Shown here: one piece after another, positions 10,351 through 50,144 of the stretch | How the letters are laid out: every line of letters starts with the position of its first letter | How positions within the stretch are numbered: position 1 is the first letter of the stretch | From: Octopus vulgaris | Taxonomy: Eukaryota | NCBI GenBank assembly: GCA_951406725.2 | Contig: OX597821.1 | Span: 7,936,001 to 8,000,000, forward strand | DNA length: 64,000 bases | Reading direction: 5' to 3' | The notes under the pieces: generated by a model | Database searches by the model: none | What the model was told of the DNA's origin: nothing | What the model saw: the letters and a program-made list of their open reading frames with translations, nothing else | Program-made: the position numbers and the translations under genes

Positions 10351-12721
10351 CCATATATATATAGTAGAATAATAAACAAAAAAGAAAAGGAGGAGAACTT
10401 CTTACAATGCAAGGAAGAAAGTTGAGCAAACTTTATATGCTTCGGGCACAAAAGCCCTACCATCAAAAGAATATGGTTAAGAAATGTCACATATCTAGGG
10501 CTGACTAAACATCAACAATAACTACAGCTTTGCAGAAGAAGGAGACTGACAGACATTATATTGAGATTGTGGATCCAGATTCCTAACACTAATTAAACCC
10601 TAGAAGTAATCACAGCTATGAGAAACCTAATACATGTTTCTAAAACAGATGTTATCTGATTCTAAGAAGTAAATAATCTGTCACCTTTTTTTTTTTTAGC
10701 TTTTTTACCTTGCTTAGCCTAGAAGGAAAATCAGTACCAGTGTCCTTTGCAGGCCCTCTGAGACTAGTGACACTGATACTGTTAAACCATTAGCATTTAA
10801 ACCAGTCATACCAGGCCAAAATAGTCTACTAGTTTTATGTTCAAAGCAGCCAGATCCAGCCTTTCACACACATCATACAAAATATCATGCTAAAAATAAA
10901 CAATCACATCATCGAAATCTCAAAGCCATGAGATAATGGGTTTGAATAATCATTACATATGACAGAGTAATCTGAATCCTAAAGGGTTAATTCTCTGTTT
11001 AAATACTTGCAGGAAAGAGATTCCAGAAGGGTGATGTTCTAAGGAGGAACAACTGGGAACAGTGGTTAGTGCAGGACTAGAGGCGGGGGGGAGGGACAGG
11101 GCAGGGTTTGACTGAATGTAATAAGGGTGATGAAAGGTGGAGAGACAAGTGGGTTGTAAGGACAGAAAAGACAGAAGAGGAGAGACAGTACATGTGTGGC
11201 CCAGAGGCCGGAACATATCTGCTAGTGACTGAATGCCAATGAATCAAGTGGCCCTTCTCCAGATGTAGTCCGTGATGTCTGTGTATTGAGGGCAGCACTG
11301 CCCCAACTGTGGGAGCAACATTCTATTGAGTCCTATGTTAACTGTGTGGATTCTTGGTCAGTTTCAACAATGTGTGTTCAGTTATTTGAACAAATACATT
11401 TCTATTTGTGAAATTTACATATAGTGGCTGAGTATTCCATAGGCATGTATATGATTAACCAAACTCTGAAACCAAATCAGTGTAACATAATGTAACAAGA
11501 CTGGATGTTGAATTACATGTATGAACCAGAAAAAACAGAAAAAGAGAGAGATACAGAAAGAGAGGGCGGAGGGGGGGGGACCATCCCCACTACTAGATTA
11601 GTACTTTACTAATTGATCTCGAAAAAAAAAATGAAACACAAAGTTGAACATAACAGGATTTGAACCGAAAACCGAGAAAGCCAGAACAAATACTGCAACG
11701 CATTCCAGACAACACAATAATGTCTCTGCCAATTCCCCACCCTAGCATACCATAAACACCCTAATGTTAAACAAACAAAATAAACAAAAGAAGTATAAAA
11801 CAAAAGTCATTTATTTACTCAGAATTTAGTTTTGATAAAATCCAATAAATATTTTTTAAATAGTTTCAAACATCCTTAAAAATGGAATTGGGAGTTGTTT
11901 AAAATGGAAAATTATCAGTTGGAGATTAAGGAAGATAAAATAAAAATTAAATAATACTTAAGTTAGAAAATAAACAATCCATAATCATGGCTGTGTGGTT
12001 AAGGAGTCTGCTTTGCAACATCAGGGTTTTGAGTTCAGTCCCACTGTGCAGAAATTTCAAACATGTGTTTTCCTCTATAGGCCTGGGACAACCAATGCCT
12101 TGTGATGGAAGTGGTAGATAGAATGTATAGAAGCCAAGTGTGTGTGTGTGTATGTACATGCGTGCATGCATGTGTGTGTGAGTGTTGCCGGTTGCATGCC
12201 CTTTCTGTTGCCAACCCTCACTTCTCAGTAAGTCAATATTTTCCCATAACTAGACATGTTTTTCACAAAAGACTGGAAATGAAAATACTGCTTGTATGAC
12301 AGTGATGTGATGTCCAGACAATAATAACTATCATTTTAAATGTTTAGATAACTGTATACACACACACACACACACACACACTCACACATGATGGACTTCT
12401 TTCAGTTCCACTCACAAGGCTTTGGTCAGCCTGATGCTACAATAGAAGACACTCAAGTGCCATGCAGTGGGAATGAACCCAAGACTACATGGTTGGGAAG
12501 CAAGCTTCTTAGCCACACACAAATGTATATGAATGGATATATGCATGAATGTTGACATTCGATGACTTCACTTGTCACCTTCTGAACATAGCAGTAATGT
12601 TGAGATACTTTGTTGGCATGACAACTAGTCATTCTGAGTTTTCAAAGAACAAGGAAATTAAATTAAAAAAACCATATTTGAAAAACTCAAGTCATAGAAG
12701 CACTGCTAAGAAAAAACTGAC

Positions 12722-13125
12722 AAGTGGCTGTGTGGTAAGTAGCTTGCTTACCAACAACATGGTTCCGGGTTCAGTCCAACTGTGTGGCACTTTGGGCAAG
12801 TGTCTTCTACTATAGCCTCAGGCCGACCAAAGCCTTGTGAGCAGATTTGGTAGACGGAAACTGAAAAGAAGCCTGTTGTATATATGCATATGTATGTATA
12901 TCTATATGTGGTGTGTGTTTGTGTGTCTATGTTTGTCCCCCCAACATCACTTGACAACCAATGCTGGTGTGTTTACGTCCCTGTAACTTAGCGGTTTGGC
13001 AAAAGAGACCGAAAGAATAAGTACTAGGCTTAAAAAGAAAAAGTCCAGAGGTCGATTTGCTCAACTAAAGGCGGTGCTCCAGCATGGCCACAGTCAAAAT
13101 GACTGAAACATGTAAAAAGAGTAAA
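12722..13125 (+). mobile_element. tRNA-derived SINE family A, full length
   Basis: A and B boxes plus the same body as 7377-7769. Confidence 0.88.
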
Positions 13126-13172
13126 AAAAAGAAGAAAAAAAAAGAGTATCAATCTTAAGTAACACACGCCTT

Positions 13173-13494
13173 TTAACCCTTTCGATACCAACCCACCTAA
13201 GACTGCTCCAGGTTCTATTGTATCAGGACAACTACCCCCGAGGACAATTACCCCCTTACCAATATATTAAGAAGTTTTGAATCATCATCTGTTGTTCTCA
13301 GGAGTAATTGTCCTTGCAGGGTTATTGTCCATGGCAGGTAAATGCTTTAAAGTCAACTAAATTATCATCTTCCATCAAAATTTATGCTAATTTGTTCCAG
13401 ACACCAGCTTAATAATGAGGAAGTTATTTTACCAAATTCTTCCTCATTTTAAAAGCAGCATATGTTGACAGAAATATGGTAACAAAAGGGTTAA
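13173..13494. mobile_element. piggyBac-like MITE family 1 carrying a nested insertion
   Basis: ttaa-ccctttcgatacca ... tggtaacaaaaggg-ttaa. Internal insert at about 13222-13345 with ggacaa(c/t)taccccc and ttgtcc subrepeats. Confidence 0.7.
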
Positions 13495-16338
13495 TTAAAC
13501 ATGTAGACTATTTGGGCCACATCCAGCCCAAATAGTCTACCATTTTTATGTTCAAACCAAGCAGATCCAGCTTCTTACACCTACCCTACAATGCCATTTT
13601 CAAAATAAACAATTACATTATCAAAAGCTTGAAGATTACATTTGACAGACTAATCTGAATGATAATGGGTTATAATTTAACTTCTAACAGCCTCAAAATA
13701 ACTGATATGAGCACAATTACAGGACCTGTACGTACATGAGCAGCTGAGGCAAGATTTTTTTGTAAAACACGAGCAGTTACCCATCCCTGTAAGGCTCCCC
13801 CCCTTCCTCCATGCCACTGATGTTTATCCAAAGGAAAACTAACACCATGGGCCAATGCTGCTTGGCACTAGTGTTGTCATAGGCATTGCTGTCACAGCAC
13901 AGAGAACTGGAACAAACAGTGCAAGGAATCTCGCCTGATCCTCTGATATCAGTCATTATCACTTAGCGTCCATATTCCATGCTAGAATGGGTTGGTTGGT
14001 TTGACAGGATCAGAAGACTGTTTTGGCATGGCTGGATGTCCTTCAGAACAGTTCTGCCAATTCATCAACCAGGACTAGTATTATTTTGTCGACCTCCAAA
14101 AAAAACTGAAAGGCAAAGTTGATTACAGTAGGATTAGAACTCAAAGTGCTAGAGTTGAAACAAACACCATGAGGTATTCTTCCCAACACTCTATTGACTT
14201 TGCCATTTCATTGTCTTATAGGATAATGGTAGTTCTTTTTGTGTTTGTGCACGTCTCCCCAATGAAGGCACATAGCTTAGTGGTTAGGGGATTCAGATCA
14301 CAATCACAAAGTCATGAGTTCAATTCCCAGCGACGTGTTGTGTCCTTGAGTAAGACACTTTATTTCACGTTGCTCCAGTCCACTCAGCTGGCAAAAATGA
14401 AGAGTGCCTGTATTTCAAAGGGCCAGCCTTATCACATTGTGCCATGTTGAATCTCTCTGGAAACAACATTAAGGATACATGTATTCCGTGGAGTTCTCAG
14501 CCACTTGCAAGTTAATTTCACGAGCAGGCTGTTCCAGTGATCGGATCAAGTGGAAGCCTTATTTTCATAACACATTTGTTATGTCTATTGGGCAAATGTC
14601 TATTTTATCCCAGGCCAACCAAAGCCCTAGGAATGGATTTGGTAGACAAAACTGAATTTATATGTGTATGTGTATATGTGTGCACATGCATGTGTGTATA
14701 GTAAAAAAGTTACTGACTCACAAGGGCTAGTTTCATGGTGTATATATTCCCCACCCAGACAGGATACTGGTTCATCGCAGGATTACTCATTTTTGCCAGC
14801 TGAGTGGGGGCTGGAGCAACATGATATAAAGCATTTTGCTCAAGAACACAACACATTGCCTGATCCAGGAATCAAAACTGCAATCTTACAATCATGAGTC
14901 CAACACCCTAACCACTAAGCCATGTACCTCCACCGTGCATGTGTGTTACTGTCTCCTTGCTTTGCCCATAGCATTATAAGTGAAAATGAGTGTCACCATC
15001 ATGCAAGCATTATCCATCACTCTCAATATTCTATGAAAACATGTCTGGTTAAAGGGAAACACTACCTTACTTGGAAATAGGTGAAGGTTGGTCACAGAAA
15101 AGGCATCTTGATGTAGAAAATCTGCTTCAACAAAATTCCATCCGACCCATGCAAGCATGGAAAAGTGGATGTTAAAGCAATGACGCTGCGATTATAATTC
15201 CAACTGTTTTTACCACTACATGGTTTGTCAAGAAAATAAGACTAATAATAATAATGGTTTCAAATTTTGCTACAAAGGCAGTAATTTTGGGGGTGGGGGT
15301 ATAGTCAATTACATTGACCCCAGTACTTGACTGGTACTTAATCTATCGGTCCCGAAAGGATGAAAGGAAAAGTTGACATCAGCGGAATTTGAACTCAGAA
15401 TATAGTGCAGACGAAATACCGCTAAGCATTCTACCTGGCATGCTAATGATTCTGCCGGTATGCCACCTTAATAATAATAATAATAATAATAATAATAGCT
15501 TCAAATTTTGGCACAGGACCAGCAATTTTGGGGGAATGGAGACTAGTTGATTAGATCAACCTCAGTGATCAACAAGAAGTTGTTTTATTGATCCCAAAAA
15601 GGATGAAAGGCAAAGTCGACCGTGGCAGAATTTGAACTCAGAACATAAAGATGGACAAAATGCTGCTAAGCATTTTGCCTGTTGTGCTAACGATTCTGCC
15701 AGTTTGCAATCTTAATAATAATAATAATAAATAATAATAACAACAACAAAAACAACAAACATTTTTTCAGTCAATTGCAAGGTAGTCATATTACACCTAA
15801 GTGTTATTTTAACAAGACGCGCCAAGGTAATTAGTTTTAATGAAATAGAAGTTAGGTTTCTAGTGATGAACTCAACAGACAGAAATAACCAAGATATATA
15901 TATGGAGGATAAAATGTCAAAGACGAATGCTGAATATAATTGAAATGCAAGGATTATTTTTGCAACAAGATTTCTTCTTTAGAAAATAATGCTGAGAGAG
16001 GAACTGATTGGCACCGAAATAAATGGCAGTGAAATTGAAACTTGTTGCTTATCAAGAGAGAATGAATTAAGAACGTTTAATGTTTGTCCAAAATGTTAAG
16101 GACATCTTTTTTTTTTACTTTTTGTATGTTTCGGTCATTTGACTGTGGCCATGCTAGGGCATGCTTTAATGGGTTCAGCTGAGCAAATGTGCCCAGTATT
16201 TATTCTTTAAGTCTAGTATTTACTCTATTGATCGGTTTTGCTGAACTGCTAAGTTACAGGGATGTAAACAAACTAACACCAGTTGTCAAGCAATGATGGA
16301 GAAGCAAAATATACAAACATGCACACACACACAAATAT

Positions 16339-16369
<31 letters not shown>

Positions 16370-17352
16370 CATACACACACATATAAACATACACATTGTG
16401 GGGCTATAATAGAAGACACTTGCCCAAGGTGTCATGCAGTAGGACTGAACCCAAAATCACAGTTGCAAAGTGAGGTTCTTAACCACACAACCTTACTAAT
16501 GACCTGTCATCAAAAGGTTTGTTTAAACAAACAAACAGTATATGATGATGGTGTTAGTAAAAAATTTATATTGTGCAACAATTGAAAATGGTGTTTGTAC
16601 ATTGTAAAGTTGCATATAACAAGATGGTTATGTTCTGTGGCTATATTTTATGTCTGTGCATTTTCTTGCTTTACGTCCATTTTTCCATGCCAGCATGAGT
16701 CGGATGAATAGGTATTGAAATACTGTTTAACAGCTGGATGCTACAAGAATATTAGCAACAGTATGAGAAAAACTGATTTGAAGTTTCTGTACATACCAGT
16801 ACCGTTTCAAAGAATACAAAGTAAAAGACAGATTTACAACAGCTATGTTTGGAAACCAGAAGTTAAAATCTTTGGTCCACCCTAGAATAAGGAGTTTCTC
16901 ATGTTACTCTTTTTCTTACTTCAGTCGTATGACTGCAGCCAAACTGGAGCCTCAACTCAAGGATTTTAGCTACTTTTTATTTTTATTTATCTTCCATTAC
17001 TTATTGAGCAGAAAGCAAAATTACTAGTGTTGGCATCATGATAAAATGGCTTACGCAAGACCTATGGTTACCAAATACCTCTGTCAAGGAGCTAAACGTG
17101 AAGTGAAAAGGACACAATCAATGCTTAAACTGTATATGTGTGTATAGTGACCTTAAATGCACTGGTCACATGTCCAATTTCATTTTGTTGTCATAGGTAG
17201 AAAACGGCAGAGTTGTTAGAGCATCATAGAATGTTTCATGGTATTTGTTCTGAACCTCTGCACTCTGAGTTCAAATCCAGGTATTGTCAAATTTACCTGT
17301 CATCCTTTTGGGTGAGATTGATAAAAAAAGTACCAATCCAAGGCAATTTTAT

Positions 17353-17778
17353 ATAGGCCCTTCACTCCCTATGGGGCATAGGCCATCGACAACTTTCCTT
17401 CACTGTTCTCAACTCTGGGTTGTTTTTTTTTCCATCTGCTTCTCTCCAATTGGGCCCCTGCTTTTCCTCAGTATTCCACCTCCAGCTATTTATTTGGGAG
17501 TCCTCTCTTCTGGCTCTCTTGTGGGTTGTTTCCATGAAAAAAGTCCTTCTTCTCTCACACTTCATTGCTTTTGAATTGTCATAAATGCTTCTATAATTTT
17601 GCTTTTTACTAGGTAGGGGTGATGGCCCTGCATAAACCTATTTTTACTTCTAGGATGAGGTGGTCCATATTAGTCTGGCCTCTATTCTTTGATCTGTCCA
17701 GTAGGAGAGGATCTACTAGGAGCCAGCACTTCACTGGCACAGGACTCAGAGTCACTGAGACACACAAGCCACAGCACT
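17353..17778 (-). mobile_element. Internally deleted non-autonomous RTE-clade LINE derivative
   Basis: On minus, an RTE-like 5' UTR (homologous to 27541-27790 on +) is joined to a decayed RTE ORF end (ggaaagttgtcgatggcctatgccccataggg = KVVDGLCPIG). Confidence 0.55.
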
Positions 17779-19129
17779 GTAACAAAGACTAGGGCCTTGT
17801 GGTAGGACCAATGGCAGTGGATTGGTAGAGATATAAAAACAATGAACTGGATGCCTTGCAGCATTTGTACCAGCTCTTTGTAGTCTGGGTTCAAATCCTT
17901 TCATGGCCTAGTTCGATGATAGACTTAAATTATAGACCCATCTAGTACCACTGGCTGGCACCTTGGGTGCCTCTAGCGGTATCCACTCTGTTGCAAGCAT
18001 TCAGATAAGGTCTCTGGGTTGAGGATGCTGCCCTCCCTCCCACCTGCTTACCAGTTTCAGAGGTGTTGTAAAGGGCCATGGGCACTACTGTCCTTCCTGA
18101 CTTAGATATAGAAAAGAAAAAGGTAAAATTTAATTCCAGAATAAGATAACTAATAAGGTAACCTACATGTGAATGGAATTCAAATAGAAAATGAAGAACT
18201 TGTTTGTTTTGGAATGCTTCGTTGGTTTCAAGACAAAAACTGTAATTGTTACATCTATTTTAGAAGATAATGTTATCAATGTTTCCTTTATCCCAGAAAC
18301 TTGGCTCATTGCAGAACCCCCACCCTCCAAACATGTCCTACTAAAAGTCTTGTATTGCAGTTACATCTACCAGAATATCATGAAACCAATGAGAGAGAGA
18401 AAGAAAGAGAGAGAGATCGCCTCTATGTGATCAATTGACATGCTAGAAATAGTAGCCAACTCTTTTAAATTGCACTTTATTATCTTAAAAGGAAAGAAAT
18501 GTCTAATGAAACATAAGATTTTTTTTCTTCTTCCTGTTCTGTTACTTGCTGGATCTGGAGGAATGGATTGTGCTTGTGGCCCCCATAGATCCTTGTTACT
18601 AGTAAGACTGAAGCTATTAATGTTCCTCTTTAACTACTGCAACTCAATACCTGAGGGAAAGACAAGAGCAAGGAAGGAAGGAGTTCCAGAGGGCCAATGT
18701 TCTAGAAAGAAGAAAGGACTGGGTGTAGTGATTAGCACGACATCCTAATAAAAGATGGGATGGTCATGACTGGAAGACCCTTGATAATAGCTCTATTTAA
18801 TCCCACTGATACCAATTCACTCAAGACTGCACCTGGTTTTATGATACAAACTTCTTGTTTAAAATTAAAACCTTCCACCAAAAATTTCATGTTAAAGTAC
18901 GTTCCAAAAACCAGTTCAATAATGACAGTTATTTTACCAAATACTTCATGATTACTTTCAAAATTAAGGTAGCATATTTCACTATTGTAAAATATACTTG
19001 CACAGGATCTTGGGAAAATGTTTTCTAACAAAACTCTGAGTCAACCAAAGGTTTGTGAGTGGATTTAGCCTATAGAAGCTGAGAGAGGCCTCTGTCTGTC
19101 TGTGTGTGTGTGTGTGCGCGTGTGCGTGC

Positions 19130-19165
<36 letters not shown>

Positions 19166-20057
19166 CTTTGTCTAGACATACGATGATTGTAAATGAACAA
19201 TCATCATACAAGCAAGGTTGTTTGTTTTCAGTCATCTGCAAAGAACATGTCTGGTCATGGGGGAAAATGACCTTGCTTGGAAACTGGTAAGGGTTGGCAG
19301 CAGGAAGGGCATCTGGCCATAGAAGCTCTGCCTCAATGAATTCCATGTGATTCATGAAAGCATGAAAAGGCAGATCTTAAAAGATGATTATGATATGGTA
19401 ACAAAAGGGTTAATTGTAACTGACCTGTGTACCATCAACCAGAAAAGTATCCCCAAGAGTTGGCAGTGCTATAGTAATCATAAAATGCCATTTCTTAAAC
19501 AGGCAGATGCCGTCCAAATCTTACACATCCTTTTGATATGCTGGTTGTAATATAAACTATAAATCAACAGCAAAATGCTACATAAATCAGGGATCAGCGA
19601 CAGGTTGCTCACTGAAGTGTCCAATGTGGGTTTTGAAACTTTTCTGAAGAAATTTCAAATTTAAATTCATTTGTAGCCCTTTGAGCAGATGATGTTTTAT
19701 TAGGAAGTCTTTTTTGTCATAATTTGTTTAACGTTTGCCTACATGAGCATTATCTGTAATGGAAATATGGAGGTGGGATTTGTGGAGATATAGCAGGTAC
19801 AACACAAAACTATGTCAAAAGCTGATAAATATCTAAATGAGGGGAAATTAAATTTTCAAGTGGTTAAGCTTTAATTTAAAGACTCGTAAGTAATCTTATA
19901 TGTAATCTGCAGAAAATAGCTGAAGCATAATCATTCTATTTTGTGGGCTGTTAATGACTGAATAATTTACATGGGAACTAAAGATTAACAAGATTATTTC
20001 AAAAGTCAATTTAGTTAATTTTTAAAACACAAGGAGTGAAGTGTGTATATATACACA

Positions 20058-20097
<40 letters not shown>

Positions 20098-21551
20098 TAA
20101 AATAATAAGATTATCTCAATGGAATCTCTAATTGTTTTAAAACAATGGGTTCACATCATTCATTCTTTTAAGCTGACATGAGATAGGTGCTTCTGATGAT
20201 TAAAGCAAATTGGCAGAGTCATTAAAACATCAGGCATAAGGCTTTGTACTGTTTGCTCTGATTCTTTGCACTGTGAGTTCAAATCCTTTTGAAGTCAACT
20301 TTACTTGTCATCCTTTTGGGAGGGCTTCGATAAAATGCACCAATCCAGGGCAATAGACTGAAAGAACTCTAAGAACATCAGTCTGGAATCATTATCAACA
20401 GCAAGTAGCATTTTCGATGCTGGCATGGATTGGACAGTTTGACAAGAACTGGCAAGGCCAGGGGTTGCACCAGGTTGCATAGTCTGTTTTTGGCTTGGCT
20501 TTTACAGATGGATGCCCTTCCTAATGCCAACCACGTTACAGAGTGTAATGGGTGCTTTTTACATGGCACCCAACACTCAGCATTTTGAGTTCCAATCTCA
20601 CCATGGTCTACTCGGGTAGCAGACTTATTTCATTACCTGATTTAGCACCACCACCTGGCCTTTTAGGTGTCTCTAGCAAGCACAAGCATTTGGACCAAGT
20701 CTTTGGTTTAAGGATACCTTCATTCCTCCCTCCTGCTAATCTCAGAAGCCCTGTAAAAGTCATGGGCATTATCTTCTCCATCATCAACAGCATCATCATG
20801 AACAACAACAATGCTTGGCCCTCACTGTTTTGTGCCACATAAAAAGCACTGATGTCATGTAAAAAGCACCCAGTACACTCTGTGGAGTAGTTGGTGTTAG
20901 GAAGGGCATCCAGCTGTAGAAATCAAGCCAAAACAGACTATGGAACTAGGTGTGGTTCCTGGCCTTGCCCCTTCTTGTCAAGCCATCCAACCCATGCCAG
21001 CATGGAAAACAGATGTTAAATGTTCATGATGATGATAATGGTTTTGTGTGTTTGTATGTGTCTCTGTCTATGTTAAAATCTCTTGAAAAGAAAAAGAAAA
21101 AAAAGAATCTATGTTTATTTCCAGCAAACTTAGTAGTGTGACAAACAGATCAATTTGCTTAATCCAGTTTCCTTGATTGAACAAAAAAAAAAGTGCCATT
21201 CTTACTTTACAGTTGGGTTTAGGTGGCAGTGGTACCCAATTGAACACTTTACAGGAACACAAGCTCTTGTAGTAGTGGTAGAACAAGCAGCTCCATTGCA
21301 AGTATGGGTGTGTGGCTAAGGAGCTCACTTTGCACCCACATGGTTATGAGTTCAGTCCCATAGTGTGGCAGTATGCACAAGTGTCTTCTATGGCCCAGAG
21401 CAACCGATGTCTTGTGAATGAATTTGGTCAATAGAAACTGTGTGGAATCCTCTATGCAGTAGAAAGGGCACCCAGCAGTAACTGCTCCAACTAGTAAAAC
21501 ATCTCATCCATGCAAAAACACACCACCAAATGTATGAAGGTGCATGTATGT

Positions 21552-21595
<44 letters not shown>

Positions 21596-35616: not shown

Positions 35617-35682
<66 letters not shown>

Positions 35683-35706
35683 GAGTTAAAGGGGTGGATG
35701 CTACAT

Positions 35707-35709
<3 letters not shown>
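35353..35709. repeat. Compound minisatellite: 5 identical 31-bp cores separated by variable (TG)/(TA) tracts
   Basis: tatggagttaaaggggtggatgctacatgag at 35353, 35426, 35493, 35566 and 35679. Confidence 0.95.
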
Positions 35710-35750
<41 letters not shown>

Positions 35751-38369: not shown

Positions 38370-38570
38370 GAAAGCTCTATGTGGTCACTTGATTTGTTAA
38401 AAATACCAGTAAAATCTTCCTCAAATCATACCCTGCTGTTTAAAAAAAATGGAGAAGAAAGACACATTAGATAATATAATTCTTTGTATACAAAAAGACA
38501 GGATGGCCATGGCTGTAACACTTCTGATTATGAGAGGTCTGCTCAATCAGAGTGACAAAGGACTAAACAA
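38370..38570 (+). mobile_element. Old dispersed repeat family D (ctctatgtggtcact..gctagaaatagcagccaaa..ggatggtcatggctggaa)
   Basis: Diverged copies also at about 30200-30375, 50610-50870, 57630-57830, 58780-58980, 59140-59360 and on minus at about 60470-60720. Unclassified. Confidence 0.6.
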
Positions 38571-39333
38571 TCTATCTTCATCCTCACCATTCTCATCAGT
38601 ATTTTATACTTTTGTTTCCATGCTAGCATGAGTTAGACAATTCTTCTGAAGTACTGATTTACAGCCAGATACTCTTCCTGTTGTTAACCCTTCTGGCTAT
38701 CTCTTACGATATGCAGAGATGCTGTGTTCCCATACCAAAACATGGATACAACAAGGGTAAACAATACCAGTCATGAGGAATAAACAAATATATCTAAAGG
38801 AAAAACCCCCATTTACACTTTTGTCGTGTGGTGAGAAGCTTGCTTCCTAACTACATGGTTCCGGGTCCAGTCCTTGGGCTGACCAAAGCCTTGTGAGTGG
38901 ATTTGATAGATGGAAACTGAAAAGAAGCTTGTCATATATACATGTGTATGTGAGTGTGTGTGTATGTGCATGTCTTCGTGTCTGTGTTTGACCACCATCA
39001 CTGCTTGACAACTAGTGTTGGTGTTTATGTCCTGTAACTTAGCAGTTTGGCAAGAGACTGAAAGAATAAGTACAAGGCTTAAAAAAAAGTCCTAGGGTCG
39101 ATTTGTACAACTAAAACCCTTCAAGGTGGTGCCCCAGGATGTCTACAGTCAAATGACTGAAACAAGTAAAATATAAAAGATATTACTGATTAAAATATTG
39201 GATTCTAACTTTGGCACAAAGATATGAATTATTGAGAGAGAAAAGATATTATAATGATCAACATCATTTAAAGTGTACTTTTCCAAGCTGACATGGGTTC
39301 GAGGAAATTACTGATGCAGTTTTTTTATTGCAC

Positions 39334-41150
39334 GGTGTTCTTGTTGCTAACCCCTCATTTCTCCAAGTAAGCTACTAATTCCCCTGGTCTTTTGAACAGA
39401 CAACAGTTCAAAGGTGTTCTCGTTGCTAACCCCTCATTTCTCCAAGTAAGCTACTAATTCCCCTGGTCTTTTGAACAGACAACAGTTCAAAGGTGTTCTC
39501 GTTGCTAACCCCTCATTTCTCCAAGTAAGCTACTAATTCCCCTGGTCTTTTGAACAGACAACAGTTCAAAGGTGTTCTTGTTGCTAACCCCTCATTTCTC
39601 CAAGTAAGCTACTAATTCCCCTGGTCTTTTGAACAGACAACAGTTCAAAGGTGTTCTTGTTGCTAACCCCTCATTTCTCCAAGTAAGCTACTAATTCCCC
39701 TGGTCTTTTGAACAGACAACAGTTCAAAGGTGTTCTTGTTGCTAACCCCTCATTTCTCCAAGTAAGCTACTAATTCCCCTGGTCTTTTGAACAGACAACA
39801 GTTCAAAGGTGTTCATGTTGCTAACCCCTCATTTCTCCAAGTAAGCTACTAATTCCCCTGGTCTTTTGAACAGACAACAGTTCAAAGGTGTTCTTGTTGC
39901 TAACCCCTCGTTTCTCCAAGTAAGCTACTAATTCCCCTGGTCTTTTGAACAGACAACAGTTCAAAGGTGTTCTTGTTGCTAACCCCTCATTTCTCCAAGT
40001 AAGCTACTAATTCCCCTGGTCTTTTGAACAGACAACAGTTCAAAGGTGTTCTTGTTGCTAACCCCTCGTTTCTCCAAGTAAGCTACTAATTCCCCTGGTC
40101 TTTTGAACAGACAACAGTTCAAAGGTGTTCTTGTTGCTAACCCCTCATTTCTCCAAGTAAGCTACTAATTCCCCTGGTCTTTTGAACAGACAACAGTTCA
40201 AAGGTGTTCTTGTTGCTAACCCCTCATTTCTCCAAGTAAGCTACTAATTCCCCTGGTCTTTTGAACAGACAACAGTTCAAAGGTGTTCTTGTTGCTAACC
40301 CCTCATTTCTCCAAGTAAGCTACTAATTCCCCTGGTCTTTTGAACAGACAACAGTTCAAAGGTGTTCTCGTTGCTAACCCCTCATTTCTCCAAGTAAGCT
40401 ACTAATTCCCCTGGTCTTTTGAACAGACAACAGTTCAAAGGTGTTCTTGTTGCTAACCCCTCATTTCTCCAAGTAAGCTACTAATTCCCCTGGTCTTTTG
40501 AACAGACAACAGTTCAAAGGTGTTCTTGTTGCTAACCCCTCGTTTCTCCAAGTAAGCTACTAATTCCCCTGGTCTTTTGAACAGACAACAGTTCAAAGGT
40601 GTTCTTGTTGCTAACCCCTCGTTTCTCCAAGTAAGCTACTAATTCCCCTGGTCTTTTGAACAGACAACAGTTCAAAGGTGTTCTTGTTGCTAACCCCTCG
40701 TTTCTCCAAGTAAGCTACTAATTCCCCTGGTCTTTTGAACAGACAACAGTTCAAAGGTGTTCTTGTTGCTAACCCCTCATTTCTCCAAGTAAGCTACTAA
40801 TTCTCCTGGTCTTTTGAACAGACAACAGTTCAAAGGTGTTCTTGTTGCTAACCCCTCATTTCTCCAAGTAAGCTACTAATTCCCCTGGTCTTTTGAACAG
40901 ACAACAGTTCAAAGGTGTTCTTGTTGCTAACCCCTCATTTCTCCAAGTAAGCTACTAATTCCCCTGGTCTTTTGAACAGACAACAGTTCAAAGGTGTTCT
41001 TGTTGCTAACCCCTCATTTCTCCAAATAAGCTACTAATTCCCCTGGTCTTTTGAACAGACAACAGTTCAAAGGTGTTCTTGTTGCTAACCCCTCATTTCT
41101 CCAAGTAAGCTGCTATTTCCTCTAGTCCTTTGAGCAGACAACAGTTCAAA
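39334..41150. repeat. Tandem satellite, 23 x 79 bp
   Basis: Unit ggtgttcttgttgctaacccctcatttctccaagtaagctactaattcccctggtcttttgaacagacaacagttcaaa; 1817 bp = 23 x 79 with no indels; last unit diverged. Confidence 0.98.
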
Positions 41151-41391
41151 TGGCAGGCATGTTTTTAAAAAAATCTTTATTTTAATTTATATGTAGACGA
41201 GGAGTCAATAAGTTTGGTTGTTGTGAAGAATGTAATCAACTGGTGTTGTGACTTATATAACACACTCAATTGAAGAGTTATTACTCAAAATATCAGCTTT
41301 TCCCCTCCACCATAAAAGAAGAATTTATTGACATTAAAAAATTTTTTTGATCTTTTCCTTTTCATGGGCAGCTCAATTAATTAATTTTCTT

Positions 41392-41625
41392 TAACTAAAC
41401 ACTTTGAAACTTCGTATACTGGCAGAATGTGTCATATAGAACATCTTTTACTCTTAGCGTTGTTGAGAAAAGTTTCTATTTACAAAGTTATTTTGTGTTA
41501 AAGTTGTCGTATTTCCGTAATTTCAACCAATCAATGACGTGTATTCAGCTGAATGAAATTACTGCCGTTGTTTGACAACAACTATCGGCGCTGTATATTT
41601 CGTTTGTCACTGTTATTTATGACAG
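41392..41625. mobile_element. Unclassified dispersed repeat fragment
   Basis: aaacttcgtatactgg.agaatgtgt..ata.aacatc is shared with 62487-62640. Confidence 0.55.
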
Positions 41626-41817
41626 TTGAATAGACATGTAAATAATTTAAAAAGGAAAAAAGAAAATCCTCAATGGAGTTTTTTAGGCGAAAAATTGCAC
41701 AAATCTGTCTTGATTAAGAGGCTTATCTCTCGAGGAAGGCATGCTCTGACATGGAATAAATAAAAATTTATATGACTTTCTATTGTAAAAATTACTTGGC
41801 AACGATGGGATATTCAG

Positions 41818-41851
<34 letters not shown>

Positions 41852-42007
41852 TGGTAAAATAGAAAGATGAATAATCTTGTTGCAGATTAATCAAAAGTTT
41901 AACCGATACCTTGGTAGCAAAAATCACGGCAAAAATCATGTGTAGAATGCAATAAAAGGAATTCTGTTCAATCTTCGTTCAACTCCATTTCTTCAATTCA
42001 CTAATAA

Positions 42008-42048
<41 letters not shown>

Positions 42049-42515
42049 TACAGACACTGATGTATACACAAATACAGAATGACATACACATCTGAGTAGA
42101 CATACAAACATGCAGCTACATATGCATCCAACCACACAAATACATAATTACATACACATCTAAGGAGACATGTATGTATGCGTCTGGGTGTGTATTTTTT
42201 TTACATAAACACAGATGCATATGCATCCAACTAGACAAATATATGCACGCACACACACACACACAAACATACACAAATACAAGGTTACAAACATACATGC
42301 ACACATAAATACAAAGCTAAATAGACTAACATACATACACGCACGCACACACTACTAGCCAATTAATCATATACACAGACACTCAGTTACACTGCACATC
42401 TAACGAGATACACGTACATACACAAACTAATGTCAGACCAGAAACCAGAGAGGGAAATAATTAGCCACAATAACAATTAGAAAACCAAGACAAGAGAGGG
42501 GGGGAGAGACAGGCA

Positions 42516-42547
<32 letters not shown>

Positions 42548-42767
42548 CTGGGTGAGAGAGTTAGAAAAATGAGAAGGAGAGACTGATGGATTAGTGGAAA
42601 ATATATTAAATAAAAACAGTGTGGTAGAGAGAGAGAAGAGATGGACAGGAGATGAGAGGGAGAGAAGAGGAAGGAGTGAGGGTGATGGCTGAAGTAGCTC
42701 TGAGGTGAATTACTCGTTTAGCTTGATCAATAACTGTGTCAATCATGACTTAAGAAGTTCCATTTAG

Positions 42768-42782
42768 GTAACTAGCAACACG
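42768..42782. promoter_or_regulatory. RFX X-box-like motif GTAACTAGCAAC(ACG)
   Basis: Perfect RGYAAC half-site with a degenerate partner; an identical 15-mer lies at 54786-54800. Function is inferred. Confidence 0.35.
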
Positions 42783-43033
42783 TGAGTCAAATATAACCTG
42801 TAGCTTAAAGGACAAGCTGACATTCTCTGATGAAGTGCTAACAACGATGATGTCCAACACACACAAAGGTGTTGCTGTGCAGTAAGAAGTTTGCTTTCCA
42901 ACCACATGGTTCTGGGTTCAATCCCACTGTATGGCACCTCGGGCAAGGGTCTTCTTCTATAGCCCCACGGCAACCAAAATCGTGTGAGTGGGTTTGGTAC
43001 AGGGAAACTGAAAGAAGCCAACTGTATATACAT

Positions 43034-43071
<38 letters not shown>

Positions 43072-43133
43072 ATAGATAGAAAGACTGACAGACAGACAGA
43101 TAGATAGATAGACGGATGGATATATTTATGTAT

Positions 43134-43517
43134 ACTCTTTTACTTGTTTCAGTCATTTGACTGCGGCCATGCTGGAGCACCGCCTTTAATCGAGCAACTC
43201 AACCCCAGGACTTATTCCTTTGTAAGCCCAGTACTTATTCTATCGGTCTCTTTTGCCAAACCGCTAAGTAACAGGGACATAAACACACCAGCATCGGTTG
43301 TCAAGCAATGCTAGGGGGACAAACACAGACACACAAACACATATACATATATACGACGGGCTTCTTTCAGTTTCCGTCTACCAAATCCACTCACAAGGCA
43401 TTGGTCGGCCCGGGGCTATAGCAGAAGCCACTTGCCCAAGGTGCCACGCAGTGGGACTGAACCCGGAACCATGTGGTTGGTTAGCAAGCTACTTACCACA
43501 CAGCCACTCCTGCGCCT
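43134..43517 (-). mobile_element. tRNA-derived SINE family A, full length
   Basis: Near-identical to the other young copies. Confidence 0.9.
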
Positions 43518-43653
43518 GATTGTTAATATTTAGAACTACATTGCTGGGTAGCTGTGCAAAGCCAGATTTGATCAATTTGAACATAAAATAGGTACAATAT
43601 TTGGGTCTGATATGGCCGGTTTAAATGCTAAAGGGTTAACTGTATTCGTCAGA

Positions 43654-43699
43654 CTACCAAACACAGTGTTTCTGTGTGGTTTTGCCTCTTCAGTAGCAA
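43654..43699 (-). ncRNA. Decayed type I hammerhead motif
   Basis: On minus: ttgcta-CTGAAGA-ggcaaaaccacaca-GAAA-cactgtg-TT-tggtag. Stem III ACAC-T-GTGT, stem I with 3 G-U pairs, poorly formed stem II. Confidence 0.4.
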
Positions 43700-44142
43700 C
43701 TACCAGCTCAATTATTTGGAACTAAACTGGAACTTTTGTACCTGTATCGCTACTATAAATAATTCTAGTTTGGCAGGCTTCAGCACATATTGCAAAAGTA
43801 TTGTTTGCTGTTTTCTATTTTAGGTGTCATTTAATTAATGAGAAGTACAAATACGTAAATGCTATTGATTAAGGGGAAAAAAAAACTGGGTTTTTTTTTG
43901 AGAAGCAGCCAAACAAATCATGGAATAATCCATCTAGAGATTTCTTCCCTTTTTTAGCACAAAAAACATAAAAAGGAATATCTTTATATAGTTTTTATTT
44001 CACCTACATCTAGGCTAATATGTATTCATATGTGATCAAGTGACTGACCAGACTCTTTGGATGCTGTTATTTATTGCTAGTCACACTGCACTTTGCATCA
44101 TTTTGGTTTTCAAATGATGTCACTCTGCTGGCTAGGGAGCAG

Positions 44143-44178
<36 letters not shown>

Positions 44179-44933
44179 CTATATATATATATATATATAT
44201 ATGATATTTTTGCATATTTTGAGGCGTTTGTGGGAGCAGAAGATGAAATCACAGACAAAAACATGTTTAAGTCATATTTTAGAGTAATTTCACCAGTCAT
44301 TGAAAAGCTACCCAGAAAGGATGAAAGGAAAACTGTATTTTCATCATCATCATCATTTAATGTCCGCTTTCCATGCTAGCATGGGTTGGACGGTTCAACT
44401 GGGGTCTGGGAAGCCCGAAGGGAAGCACCAGGCCAGTCAGATATGGCGGTGTTTCTACAGCTGGATGCCCTTCCTAACGCCAACCACTCCATGAGTGTAG
44501 TGGGTGCTTTTTATGTGCCACCGACACGTACCAGACGAGGCTGGCGAACGGCCACGCTCGGATGGTGTTTTTTACATGCCACTGGCACGGAGGCCAGGCG
44601 AGGCTGGCACGGCCACGATCAGATGGTGTTTGTTACGTGCCACCAGTACGGAGGCCAGTCGATGCGGAGCTGGCAACAGCCACGTTCGGACGGTTCTCTT
44701 ATGTGCCACCGGCACTGGTACCACAAACTATAAATTCCATTGATGTGGATCGATTTTGATTTGATTCTTTGATTCAAGAAGGAAGGTATGCACAGGTGGA
44801 CTGACTACGTCCCAGGTAGGGGCCATGGGTTATGGCCTCACTTAACCCGTGGCCCCTACCTGGGACATAGCTAATAAATAAGCAGAGGTGTTTTTTATAC
44901 CACTTTTCGATGCATTTGTGGAGAAAGAAGATA

Positions 44934-45801
44934 TGTGGTCTGATCAATAAATATCCGGACTGTTGCCAGAGTAACAAAGCTAAAGCATGCACAGATTGAC
45001 CTTGAACTCTGCTGTACATGCACACTAAGTTTTAACATTCTAGCTCACTTCTGCTGTTTACAGCAGGGCTTGGCAGGAACGTGTGTAGTGTGTGATCATC
45101 ACATTGACCATGACAGAGAAAGTTGAGCAGAGAATCTCCATCAAATTTTACCAAAAGCTTGGTGATACCTGGTGAGAAGCCTACGCAAAGTTTTCAAAAA
45201 GTTTTCATCATTCTTGACACAATCAAAGAGATCTTGTGCAACTGAAACCCAAGTGTCTTTTTGGTCAGCTGAAAGCAGTTTTGGCACAAAATTGGAAGAC
45301 ATGTATCTCATATCCAAATCTTCAGTGATGATGGACTGAACCGAACCGTAACTAATCTGCACATCCTCTGATAACTCACAGATGGTGATTCGATGATTTT
45401 TTTCCCTCACAGCTGCACATGCATCTGTAATGTTTTTCTCAGTTCTGCAGGTTGTGGGTCTCCCGGAATGTTTGTCAATATCAAAATTTTTTTCAACCAT
45501 CTTGGAAACATTTGAACCACTCATACACCTGTGCATGCCTCATACACTTTCTGCAACTTTGCATAGGCCTCTGAGCAAGTATCTCACCATAACTTTCTGT
45601 TTCATGGTCCATGCAATGACCACACACTACACATGTTCCTTCCAAACACTGCTGTAAACAGTGGAAGTGAGCTAGGGCATTAAAACTTAGTGCACAGGCA
45701 CAGCAGAGTTCAAGGTCAATCTTTGCCAAGCAGCTTCACTCTGCATTAGCTTTACCTTTGTTATTATGGCAACATTCCAGATACTCAGTGATCAGACCTT
45801 G
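44934..45801. mobile_element. Mariner-derived element composed of two inverted 5' ends
   Basis: TA-flanked TIRs (ggtctgatca.t.a.tatc.gga.tgttgcca). Transposase N-terminus on + (45110, MTEKVEQRISIKFYQKLGDT) and a longer N-terminal remnant on -. Confidence 0.85.
45193..45607 (-). pseudogene. Mariner transposase pseudogene fragment (HTH region to WVPHEL-like motif)
   Basis: VYEWFKCFQDG / SGRPTTCRTEKNI...RITICELSEDVQISYGSVQSIITEDLDMRYMSSNFVPKLLSADQK. Frameshifted and lacks the DD34D domain. Confidence 0.88.
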
Positions 45802-45977
45802 TATTGATGCAGAGTTTTAAGATGTTACGCCAGTTATTTTGATGTCCATTCACTTTTCTGTACTACCCCCATCATGAAACTGAAAACTGTGAAAAAATGC
45901 TCCACCTTACACACACACACATACAAACATACATCAGTATATATCTATCTATATATAAGTGTATATATATATATATA

Positions 45978-46175
45978 CCGGAGTAAACACATAAATGTGA
46001 AACAAGGTGGAAAAAAGAGTACTCAAATACCAGTGGTAGAGTAATATGCTTTATTTTAAGCAGCAGAAAATTCAACAAAACCTGTTACTCTGGGTTTCAC
46101 GTTCCCGTTCGTCGGACAGTTTTTGCTAGCAAAACTGTAACAGGTTTTGTTGAATTTTCTGCTGCTTTAAATAAA

Positions 46176-46181
<6 letters not shown>
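45978..46181 (-). mobile_element. Penelope-like terminal repeat remnant with a partial inverted copy
   Basis: Hammerhead followed by AATAAA (46055-46050, minus); inverted arms 46044-46087 and 46138-46181; inserted in (TA)n. Confidence 0.6.
46082..46119 (-). ncRNA. Minimal type I hammerhead ribozyme motif (U4C core variant)
   Basis: On minus: CTGT-CCGACGA-ACG ggaa CGT-GAAA-cccagag-TA-ACAG. Stem I CTGT/ACAG, stem II with GNRA loop, GUA triplet, predicted cut after 46086. Confidence 0.65.
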
Positions 46182-46229
<48 letters not shown>

Positions 46230-46326
46230 CTGTGTGCATGTGTTTATTCATATTTTTAAAAATTGTGAAAAAATGCTCCACCCTATATATATACACACAT
46301 ATATCAGTATATATACCTATATGTAA

Positions 46327-46369
<43 letters not shown>

Positions 46370-46404
46370 TGAATATACACACACACACATATATATATAT
46401 ATAT

Positions 46405-46437
<33 letters not shown>

Positions 46438-48658
46438 TTCATATTTAAATAAAAAATTTAATTCCTGTATTTCAACCACAAAATTACAACTTATTAAAAA
46501 CTACAATCGGGAAGAGGAGAGAATAAAACATTTATGATGAAGGATCCGTGACAAAGACTAAAGTTGATGGCAAGGTATCAAGGAACTCACATGGTTCTCA
46601 TAGATGAAACAACAGAAGAAGAAAAAAAAAAAAAAATTCTTCTACTATACACACATGGCCTGAAATTTCAGTGGATGGAGCAGGATAGTTGATCTCACAC
46701 AGCCCAGTGCTTAACTGGTACTTATTTTATCGACCTTGAAAAATTAAACAGATATTGACTCCAGGAGAATTTGAACTCAGAATGTAAATCTGGAGGAACC
46801 GAATCTAAGCATTTTGTCTGGCATCCTAACAACTCTTCCAGCCAGACAACCACATCATTACCACTAATTTACAAAGCAGTGGTTTACACAACACTGGTGC
46901 TATTGTCTGTTCATGAGCATTGTAATTAAGAGTTAACGTGTATAGGCATAACAGGTATAGCAAGATTTAATGAATGCATTGGAATTGATAATTTACTTTG
47001 TGGCGTGTATTGTACTATATTGATGGCTTTTATTAGTTATTAAGTTTGTTATTAGTTATTAAGTTTATTAAGGCAGCAAGCTGGCAGAATCATTAGTGTG
47101 CCAGACAAAATACTTCGCAACATTTCTTCCAGCTCTTTACATTCTGAGTTCAAACTCTACTGAGATTGACTTAGGTTTTTATCCTTTCAGGGATCAATAA
47201 AATAAAGTAGCAGTCAAGCACTGGGGTTGATATAGTCAACTTACTCCCTACTCTTAAAACTGATGGTCATGTGCCAAGATTTGAATTATTTACAAGTTTA
47301 TCAAAAACTTCAAGGATGTCACATTTTTAAGAGATTTCATTATCATCATCATCATTTAAAGTTAACTTTTGCAGGTCTTCCCGAGTCAGATGGAATTTGT
47401 TGCAGCAGATTTTCTATGGTTGGAAGCCCTTGCTGTCACAAACCCTCAATTGTTTCTAAACAAGGTAATATTGCCCCATACCCAGACACATTTTTCACAG
47501 GAGATTGGAAATAAACAACCTCACTTGTACAACTGTGAAGCTTATTTACAACCACTATGTGATGTCAAGACAGATGTACACACAAACATACATATTCTTT
47601 TATTTTTTTACTTGTTTCAGTCATTTGACTGCAGCCATGCTGGAGCACCACCTTAAAGGGTTTTAGTCAAAGAAATCAACCCCAGGACTTATCTGTATGC
47701 CTAGTACTTATTCTATTGGTCTCTTTTGCAGAACAACTAAGTTACAGGGGCAAGCGATGGCAGGGGTACAAAAACATAGACACACGCACATATGACAGGC
47801 TTCTTTCAGTTTCCGCCTACCAAATCCACTCACAAGGCTTTGGTCGGTCCAAGGCTATAGTAGAAGACACTTGACCAAGCTATCACTCAGTAGGACTGAA
47901 CCCAGAACCATGTGGTCGGGAAGCAATCTTCTTACCACACAGCCATGCTTGCACCTATATACATGTATATGGTATGCTTCTTTCAGTTTCCATCAACCAA
48001 ATCCATTCACAAGTCATTAGTCAGCCAGGGTCTACTATAATTGAAGACCCTTGCCCAAGTAGAAAGCACTTGCAGTGCAGTGAGACTGAACCCAAGACCA
48101 CATGGTTAGAAAGCAAGCTTCTCAACCACCAAGTCATATAATTTTTGAAAGGAATTGTAACTATGCATGAGTGTTGGGAAGCCTTTTGCAAAATATGTCC
48201 AAAGACATTTGGCTCAAGCAATGTTGTTTGGTAACCCTGGAGCTAATTTTAGAAATTCAGGCAAAATGCCATGATGAAAATTATTGAAGAATTTGAATTT
48301 GTGCAAGTGTATACATGTCTGAGAAACTTAAAAAGTTGGATATTTCTAGACAGATTAGTCTATCCAGATACTACTGTCCCACTCCTCCTCCCATCACCCT
48401 TGACATGTCCACTACCCTTGGACCTACACTAATCACTCTGCCCTATCTTTTGTCCCAGGCCCACAGGAATTCTTTCCCTGTTCATGTGATTCATGTAGGT
48501 GTTGACTTATGAAGGTTCAAAAAGACCATTAATGACATCACAGTCACCAATTTAAGAGGACCTACAAAAACCAATGGAGATACTAGGCACTGCCTCTTCC
48601 CCTAGACCCCCAGCAACCAAAAAAAACATTTAAAAAAATATCCACAGTTTTACAAGTG

Positions 48659-48813
48659 GAGGCATGGCATAGTGGTAAGAAGCTTGCTTACCAACCACAT
48701 GGTTCAGAGTTCAGTTCCACTTTGTGGCACCTTGGGCAAATGTCTTCCACTATGACCTTGGGCTGACCAAAGCCTTGTGAGTGGATTTGGTAGGCAGAAA
48801 CTGAAAGAAGCCC

Positions 48814-48856
<43 letters not shown>

Positions 48857-49076
48857 TTGTATGTATGTATGCATGCATGCGTGGATTTTTGAGTCTGTTT
48901 CCACCACCACCACACCACTTGACAACTGGTGTTGGTTTGTTTTGTCCCTGTGACTTAGCAGTTCAACAAAAAAAAAAATCAATAGAATAAGTACCAGGTT
49001 TAAAAAAAAAAAGCACTGGAACTCTTTGGGGCAGTGCCCCAGCCTGGTCACAGTCTAGTGACTGAAATGAGTAAAA
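48659..49076 (+). mobile_element. Older SINE family A copy
   Basis: Diverged head, body and tail. Similar old copies at about 600-765, 4440-4590, 23085-23210, 38825-39180, 42865-43020, 47605-47956 and 53960-54230. Confidence 0.75.
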
Positions 49077-49528
49077 AATAATTTTTTAAAATTCTATTTC
49101 TTATCCAAAACTAGTCTTGGGACTCTGCTTCAGTAATTTTAGAATTTACTTGAATAATGAAGCCCCACTTCACGACTCCAAATAATATCAGAGTTGACAT
49201 GACAACTAATGAGATTGATGTATACTTGGAAGCACATATCTAGGAAAATAATTTTTCCTGAGAAATAAGGTACTAATAATAATACTGATTATTCACCTAT
49301 AGGTTAGATTAGGGGCTGGCAAACTTCTTATATGCCACTGACCCCCTTCATGGAATTGTCAACAAATTATTGACCCTTACCCAAGGGGTAAGGGTCAATA
49401 CATATGCATGCATGTATGTGTGTGTATATACATATATATATATATATGTATGCATGTGTGTATGTATATATATGTATATGTATGCATGCATGTGTGTGTA
49501 TATACATATATATATGTATGCATGTGTG

Positions 49529-49569
<41 letters not shown>

Positions 49570-49623
49570 GTATGTATGCATATATATATGTATATATAAA
49601 ATGTCGGCATATACGTGTATGTA

Positions 49624-49658
<35 letters not shown>

Positions 49659-49760
49659 TCGGGGTGAGTACTTGATATTTATAAGCACCTGTATATACCG
49701 TTTGGTGGTGTAGGTGGTGGAGTAAATTGATCAAAATAAAAACATGATGCCAAGGATTCA

Positions 49761-49838
49761 GCGGTACATATGTTTCGGGCCTTTATTAGACAGATTTATA
49801 ACAATGCATAATGTATGTCTGTGGCCTTCTTCAGCCGC
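49761..49838 (-). ncRNA. Type I hammerhead ribozyme motif (mirror copy, KIFAP3 sense strand)
   Basis: Exact reverse complement of 49995-50072. Confidence 0.78.
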
Positions 49839-49994
49839 GCACAACAGCTTCCACAAGGACATGTGTTACATCAAAAATTCTTGGTTGGGGATGCAAATCC
49901 TCTCATTCACGTACGACATAATGCGAATGAGAGGATTTGCATCCCCAACCAAGAATTTTTGATGTAACACATGTCCTTGTGGAAGCTGTTGTGC

Positions 49995-50072
49995 GCGGCT
50001 GAAGAAGGCCACAGACATACATTATGCATTGTTATAAATCTGTCTAATAAAGGCCCGAAACATATGTACCGC
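49995..50072 (+). ncRNA. Type I hammerhead ribozyme motif with palindromic stem III
   Basis: GCGG-CTGAAGA-aGGCC..(41 nt)..GGCCc-GAAA-C ATAT G-TA-CCGC. Stem I GCGG/CCGC, intact core, stem III ACATATGT, GUA triplet (cut after 50068). A-C mismatch at the base of stem II. Confidence 0.78.
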
Positions 50073-50102
50073 TGAATTCTTGGCATCATGTTTTTATTTT
50101 GA

Positions 50103-50144
<42 letters not shown>

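What the first reader, a model, noticed from the sequence alone, without database searches (positions are those of the whole stretch)
10431..50103. At least five independent loci of Penelope-type hammerhead motifs in one intron
Seen: hammerhead-shaped motifs with unrelated stem sequences at 49761/49995, 46082, 43654, 32836 and (badly decayed) 10431, ranging from intact to eroded. The better-preserved ones share the minimal type I layout with a self-complementary or near self-complementary stem III. No Penelope ORF is visible in the window. Inference: several ribozyme-bearing retroelement families, possibly non-autonomous and retrozyme-like, colonised this genome. Copies on the KIFAP3 sense strand are antisense-masked or core/stem-mutated, which would fit selection against pre-mRNA cleavage. 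The sample is too small to show this.
Basis: partly seen in the sequence, partly recalled or inferred. Interest (0 to 1): 0.72.

Follow-up and report, generated by a model that had tools for sequence, protein, structure and literature searches.

The report
Penelope retrotransposon tails in KIFAP3 intron
The five hammerhead-ribozyme motifs in this 57-kb intron are tail ends of five different repeat families, at least two of them Penelope-type jumping genes, and they are likely passengers: in 1.4 Mb of other genes intact unmasked copies face the host gene's direction as often as the opposite one (7 versus 6).

Summary
All five loci lie in KIFAP3 intron 1 (minus strand, 3829-61335). Only A (49761/49995) and D (32836) beat shuffles as motifs; B, C and E are supported by relatives elsewhere in the genome (C weakly, 3 relatives). 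A is a young family (98-99% identical copies) whose long copies carry an 835-aa RT plus C-terminal GIY-YIG-type ORF with Hydra-clade motifs; B also has an ORF-bearing relative. So these two are truncated tails of ORF-bearing Penelope-like elements, not separate non-autonomous families; only D looks retrozyme-like (about 374-nt partial tandem). The selection idea is not supported: A's masking arm is shared by at least 15 of 29 other copies, B's U4C is family-wide, E's core decay matches its flanks, the antisense copy D is also stem-damaged, and outside the window intact unmasked copies are 7 sense versus 6 antisense. Caveat: all 7 lie in four dynein genes; the other genes hold 0 versus 1, too few to test. 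Penelope hammerheads are published (2014). This scan noted the same kind of thing before, in this genome (ITPR introns) and in lizard, shark and mussel DNA.

The parts
61336..61367 (-). KIFAP3 first coding exon (MQADEARYLK-R), GT donor at 61335
   Evidence: reading phase joins exon 2
3697..3828 (-). KIFAP3 exon 2
   Evidence: Pfam KAP hit; splice sites read
3829..61335 (-). KIFAP3 intron 1, about 57.5 kb, holds all loci
49655..49908 (-). Family A main arm: 3' end of a young Hydra-like Penelope element, ending in (TA)n; about 68-nt tail 49655-49722 not copied in the inverted arm
49761..49838 (-). Family A hammerhead, sense to KIFAP3, core intact; predicted cut after 49765
49925..50110 (+). Family A inverted 5' arm, followed by (TA)n; pairs with the main arm as a 186-bp hairpin
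49995..50072 (+). Family A hammerhead, mirror copy, core intact
45979..46131 (-). Family B main arm (3' end of a Hydra-like element), ending in (TA)n
46078..46120 (-). Family B hammerhead, sense, family-wide U4C core, 3-bp helix II with GNRA loop
46135..46177 (+). Family B short inverted arm (covers stem I 3' strand only)
43654..43698 (-). Family C hammerhead relic, sense, core intact, helix II eroded; only 3 weak relatives
32835..32947 (+). Family D relic, 5'-truncated at stem I; hammerhead 32840-32884, antisense to KIFAP3, core intact, helix II 3 of 5 pairs
10374..10487 (-). Family E relic; hammerhead 10431-10470, sense, 3 of 11 core positions changed
41935..41993 (+).

Best explanation
The five motifs are the 3'-end hammerheads of five separate repeat families inserted in KIFAP3 intron 1, two of them shown to be tails of ORF-bearing Penelope-like elements, and they are likely neutral passengers that rarely if ever cut the host pre-mRNA. 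Shown: family membership, ORF-bearing long copies for A and B, (TA)n flanks, inverted 5' arms in many copies, no strand excess in the sample. Inferred: the element's RT/endonuclease primed at (TA)n, copied the 3' end of an uncut RNA (genomic copies run about 110 nt past the predicted cut), stopped early and often folded back, giving the inverted arm; the copies then decayed for different lengths of time. Inferred from published work on other Penelope hammerheads: a lone motif with an unstable, self-complementary helix III needs a second copy or the element's protein to cut, so host selection on single intronic copies would be weak.
For: A: 1976 candidates, 39 of 39 other scored full-length copies 98-99% identical; 835-aa ORF L074:1651-4155 with DKT, YRDD, CxCX5C, CxxC, CxH motifs (features); Atlas neighbours carry HTH_animal/GIY-YIG families on 25-99% of members. 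B: L068 has RT and endonuclease remnants about 1.1 kb upstream of the same hammerhead. Inverted arm over the hammerhead in 9 of 29 other A copies within 1.5 kb and 6 more of 16 extended to 9.5 kb; described as typical of Penelope insertions. C at position 4 in 24 of 29 B relatives and in 5 of 7 copies not picked with the B query. Window copies A-D have 0 of 11 core changes against their family majority; E has 3 of 11 against 10 of 67 in flanks, P=0.22. Outside the window, 1.392 Mb in 13 genes: all hits 35 sense/32 antisense, intact 18/14, intact and unmasked 7/6, 95% CI of the sense share 0.25-0.81; a sense share of 0.1 is rejected at P=1e-4. Lone minimal hammerheads did not cut in vitro (PMC4209133); an Anolis Penelope hammerhead cut only with the element's protein (PMC11167929).
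Against: All 7 unmasked intact sense copies lie in four dynein heavy-chain genes (800 kb); 632 kb of myosin, KIFAP3, one other dynein and RIH-domain gene stretches hold 0 sense and 1 antisense (P=0.017 for 0 of 7, but also 1 of 13 for both strands, P=0.006; strand-by-group Fisher P=0.46; post hoc). No ORF was linked to C, D or E (one search used one Hydra-like query only). Family samples are ranked by likeness to the window copy, which biases the majority towards it. No cleavage was measured. A 2026 preprint reports fewer Xenopus retrozymes in introns than between genes.
Confidence: 0.75

Rival explanations
1. Selection removes intact, unmasked sense-strand hammerheads, but only in broadly or highly expressed genes; tissue-restricted dyneins tolerate them.
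For: 0 of 7 unmasked intact sense copies fall in the 44% of sampled sequence from myosins, KIFAP3, DynC2 and RIH genes (P=0.017), while all family hits are spread evenly (27 of 68, P=0.54). The window has no unmasked canonical sense copy. Fast intronic ribozymes are reported to impair splicing (Fong 2009 as cited in PMC10919898; the original was not seen).
Against: Antisense unmasked copies are scarce there too (1 of 6), so no strand contrast (Fisher P=0.46). The split was made after seeing the data, and expression breadth was assumed, not measured. The same passage says slow ribozymes had no effect. An unchecked scan note reports four sense hammerheads in ITPR introns of this genome.
Confidence: 0.15
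2. Families C, D and E are stand-alone, non-autonomous retrozyme-type circles that borrow a Penelope RT, not tails of ORF-bearing elements.
For: D homology is confined to about -350 to +250 around the hammerhead, with direct repeats at 350-400 nt spacing in 4 of 30 loci and two hammerheads 374 nt apart in L036. E forms a 120-nt tandem array in 1 of 20 loci. No Hydra-like ORF in their flanks.
Against: Penelope pLTR partial tandems and strong 5' truncation give the same picture; inverted arms occur in D and E too; only 1.5-kb flanks of old copies were seen; no circular RNA evidence. This is compatible with the best explanation and changes only the class of C-E.
Confidence: 0.35
3. C (and less likely E) is a chance resemblance to a hammerhead.
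For: Neither passes the strict scan and loose levels equal shuffles; C has only 3 relatives at E 1e-5.
Against: C's relatives match exactly over the motif, keep the core (0.06 divergence against 0.21 outside) and L111 has a 4-bp helix II. E's 19 relatives give a majority with a full core and paired stems.
Confidence: 0.07

Closest known systems
Minimal type I hammerheads of metazoan Penelope-like elements (Cervera and De la Pena 2014, PMC4209133; parts 1-2 of 4 of the text read)
   Same: Type I layout, 4-5 bp helix I, small palindromic helix III, many unrelated families per genome, mostly single truncated copies, opposite-strand pairs 100-700 bp apart.
   Different: Octopus-like genome not among the examples in the parts read; family B carries U4C and a 3-bp helix II with a GNRA loop; activity untested here.
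Hydra clade of C-terminal-endonuclease Penelope-like elements (Craig et al. 2021, PMC8557442; section 11 and passages read, supplements not opened)
   Same: Single ORF, DKT, CxCX5C linker, no CCHH, CxxC and CxH near the end, (TA)n targets, hammerhead present, molluscs listed among hosts.
   Different: Family A is at least 4.7 kb with a 2.1-kb 3' UTR (paper: generally under 3 kb); RWA in place of RWK; tails about 68-71 nt (paper: 30-40 bp, stated for Naiads); no tree was built.
Non-LTR retrozymes (Cervera and de la Pena 2020, PMC7229834, passages; Li et al. 2026 preprint 10.64898/2026.07.22.740005, part 1 of 5 and passages)
   Same: Family D: about 374-nt unit, low GC, type I hammerhead, partial tandem, no ORF seen.
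   Different: D copies are old and almost all single; no circular RNA shown; A and B are ORF-linked. The preprint tests intron versus intergenic density; the words antisense and orientation do not occur in it.

Membership tests
Type I hammerhead (PLE minimal type) | CUGANGA, GAAA and UH core closed by helices I and II | tested here: met
   A and D in the window; family majorities of C, D, E. Window copies of B (U4C), C (helix II) and E (core) depart from it.
Type I hammerhead (PLE minimal type) | Small self-complementary helix III suited to dimer folding | tested here: met
   A, C, D form duplexes and A, D no hairpin; not met for the window copy of B.
Type I hammerhead (PLE minimal type) | Self-cleavage | not testable with these tools
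   Only contigs were available, which cannot show RNA ends.
Rfam hammerhead families | Match to a covariance model | tested here: not met
   None listed (best 150 of 164 rows seen).
Penelope-like element, endonuclease-positive (families A, B) | Single ORF with RT and GIY-YIG-type endonuclease upstream of the hammerhead | tested here: met
   A: L074 835 aa, Atlas neighbours; Pfam alone gave no significant family. B: broken remnants in L068.
Penelope-like element, endonuclease-positive (families A, B) | 5' truncation, inverted 5' arm, one-sided tail, microsatellite target | tested here: met
Penelope-like element (families C, D, E) | Linked RT ORF | tested here: inconclusive
   No tblastn hit in 1.5-kb flanks with one Hydra-like query; other clades not queried.
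Hydra clade (family A) | DKT, CxCX5C, no CCHH, CxxC and CxH, (TA)n target | tested here: met
   Read from the ORF against the list.
Hydra clade (family A) | RWK motif and length under 3 kb | tested here: not met
   RWA; at least 4.7 kb. The paper gives length as a general tendency.
Hydra clade (family A) | Placement in an RT tree | not tested
   No reference proteins were fetched; family A is called Hydra-like on motifs only.
Non-LTR retrozyme (family D) | 150-450 nt unit in tandem with a hammerhead in each unit | tested here: inconclusive
   One locus of 30 with two hammerheads 374 nt apart; three more with partial direct repeats.
Non-LTR retrozyme (family D) | Linear and circular monomer RNAs | not testable with these tools
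   No raw reads available.

The most novel reading that the evidence does not exclude
In broadly expressed genes of this genome, Penelope hammerheads survive on the sense strand only when locked in a fold-back or mutated, so the element's own 5'-inversion acts as a safety catch that lets insertions persist in essential introns.
Probability: 0.12. Interest if true: 0.6.

Novelty: new member of a known kind. Interest (0 to 1): 0.2.

Why it matters
As found, it is ordinary: about 20 perfect-core hammerheads per Mb of genic DNA (29 in 1.45 Mb) from many Penelope-type families, as described for other animals. It adds a young, probably still mobile Hydra-like family with an open ORF and a long 3' UTR, a usable substrate for testing what Hydra hammerheads do. 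If the rival held, orientation bias would be genomic evidence that these ribozymes cut in vivo, which is an open question; the present sample does not show that.

Tried and rejected
Rfam scans gave only microsatellite- and hairpin-driven miRNA matches. Pfam did not recognise the family A ORF. A genome search with only the 3' part of B returned nothing, as very common words are skipped, so the B sample stays biased to fold-back copies. The sequence upstream of B in L103 is not family sequence. Single-strand folding gave the hammerhead shape only for A and no z-score beyond -1.5. Sequencing runs: no holder on record as RNA; contigs of 4 runs cover families A and B but cannot show strand, ends or source locus, so not used as evidence. 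The Fong 2009 paper is not held. I considered Naiad for family A and rejected it because the endonuclease is C-terminal. A larger sample of broadly expressed genes could not be obtained, which leaves the first rival open.

Full report
Setting. The window lies in a 2.8-Gb animal genome (G000:C8:7936001-8000000), octopus-like by my inference from size and repeats. Pfam KAP exons run on the minus strand. The first coding exon ends at 61336 and joins in phase to exon 2 at 3828, so intron 1 spans 3829-61335 and holds all five loci. A (49761), B, C and E are sense to the gene; A (49995) and D are antisense.

Is it real? A type I descriptor with a perfect core and at most one stem mismatch finds 3 hits (both A arms and D) against 0.03 and 0.1 in two sets of 30 dinucleotide shuffles, none reaching 3. 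With one core mismatch allowed it finds 5 against about 3, reached by 5-6 of 30 shuffles. B, C and E therefore needed homology. Genome searches gave 1976 candidates for A (40 scored, 98-100%), 773 for D (40 scored, 76-90% for the other copies), 654 for B (40 scored), 20 for E and 4 for C. Family majorities of A, C, D and E have the full canonical core with paired helices; B has C at position 4. C is the weakest case. A sixth relic, cut inside the motif, sits at 41935-41993.

What the families are. I extended 17 of the 29 other A loci to 10 kb. One holds an open 835-aa frame ending about 2 kb upstream of the same hammerhead, and several hold long parts of it. It has RT motifs (DKT, YRDD) and a C-terminal endonuclease with CxCX5C, CxxC and CxH and no CCHH, the list given for the Hydra clade; it differs in RWA for RWK and in length. 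Pfam found nothing significant; Atlas neighbours carry HTH_animal and GIY-YIG families. B has one ORF-bearing relative (L068). The A copies printed (output cut, about 27 of 30 seen) end in (TA)n or a similar dinucleotide run, as do the B copies printed. D shares sequence only from about -350 to +250, shows direct repeats at 350-400 nt in 4 of 30 loci and two hammerheads 374 nt apart in one, which is retrozyme-like but also fits a pLTR tandem. E has one 120-nt tandem array in 20 loci. No ORF was linked to C, D or E.

The selection idea, locus by locus. A: the two arms fold into a 186-bp hairpin (-343.7 kcal/mol), so masking is predicted, but it is symmetric for both strands and common: 9 of 29 other copies have such an arm within 1.5 kb and 6 more of 16 within 9.5 kb; inverted 5' copies are described as typical of these elements. 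B: C4 is in 24 of 29 relatives and 5 of 7 copies met without the B query, so it predates this insertion; U4C is described as lowering activity in vitro yet sufficing for a viroid (PMC3088659, passage). C: core intact, helix II eroded amid 16 of 54 non-core differences. E: 3 of 11 core changes against 10 of 67 outside, P=0.22. D, the lone antisense copy, keeps only 3 of 5 helix II pairs. The family samples are ranked by likeness to the window copy, which favours agreement with it.

The strand test. Gene spans and strands came from Pfam exon hits for dyneins and myosins; 1.392 Mb inside 13 genes was fetched; nested genes were not excluded. A stricter descriptor found 29 perfect-core hits at score 18 or more (17 sense, 12 antisense; 2 of them in the window) against 0.8 per shuffle over 5 shuffles. 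Nineteen family profiles gave 75 hits. Outside the window: 35 sense and 32 antisense in all, 18 and 14 intact, 7 and 6 intact and unmasked. No B copy outside the window passed the helix II rule, one single-copy hit (F13) may be chance, and partners beyond a fetched piece would be missed. Strong purging of sense copies is rejected (share 0.1, P=1e-4); a mild bias is not (CI 0.25-0.81). Against my reading: all 7 unmasked sense copies are in four dyneins that I take to be axonemal from their P-loop exons (class recalled, not tested), and the other 632 kb, including 39.8 kb added, hold 0 sense and 1 antisense. The deficit there touches both strands and the strand-by-group test gives P=0.46.

Mechanism. 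Shown: family links, ORFs for A and B, truncation, inversion, (TA)n flanks, decay. Inferred: target-primed copying of the RNA 3' end, early stop and fold-back. Genomic copies continue about 110 nt beyond the predicted cut, so the template was likely uncut there, in line with the report that unprocessed RNA is the main substrate and that the Anolis hammerhead cut only with the element's protein. Lone minimal hammerheads showed no cutting in vitro, and slow intronic ribozymes are reported not to affect splicing (second-hand). Together these make neutral passage the likeliest reading (0.75).

Known or new. Penelope hammerheads, single truncated copies and opposite-strand pairs are published; Hydra elements with hammerheads include molluscs; an octopus repeat annotation lists recently active Penelope families without the words hammerhead, ribozyme or Hydra (passages). 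In four paper searches (listings and abstract starts) I saw no strand-bias test for Penelope hammerheads; the nearest is an intron-versus-intergenic count in Xenopus. Supplements were not opened and may list octopus families. Earlier scan notes reached similar verdicts on other DNA; I did not check them. Verdict: real, ordinary, new members of a known kind; interest 0.2.

Noticed in passing
window 2310-2700 (+): 3' end of a restriction-like-endonuclease LINE (HERO-like by recall) with a short 3' UTR; other scan notes describe rearranged hammerheads in such UTRs in this genome. The UTR has no intact CUGANGA here.
   Followed up: partly
window 39334-41150: Young tandem array, 23 copies of a 79-nt unit at 98% identity, no hammerhead core.
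   Followed up: no
window 45144-45539 (-): Mariner-type transposase remnant (by recall of the motif).
   Followed up: no
window 62123-62404 (+): C-terminal fragment of another non-LTR retrotransposon ORF about 750 nt upstream of the KIFAP3 start codon.
   Followed up: no
family B, L078-L107: Many copies fold back at the same axis 13 nt upstream of the core; helix II loop varies as GCAA/GGAA/GTAA/GAAA (all GNRA), and U4C has spread through most copies. The sample is biased by the query.
   Followed up: partly
window 49655-49722 and 45979-46049: One-sided tails of families A and B are about 68-71 nt, longer than the 30-40 bp given in PMC8557442.
   Followed up: partly
L074:1651-4155: Open 835-aa ORF in a family with 98-99% identical copies: probably a recently mobile Hydra-like element.
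   Followed up: partly
L117: 120-nt tandem array of a family E hammerhead-bearing unit, each unit with an internal inverted part.
   Followed up: no
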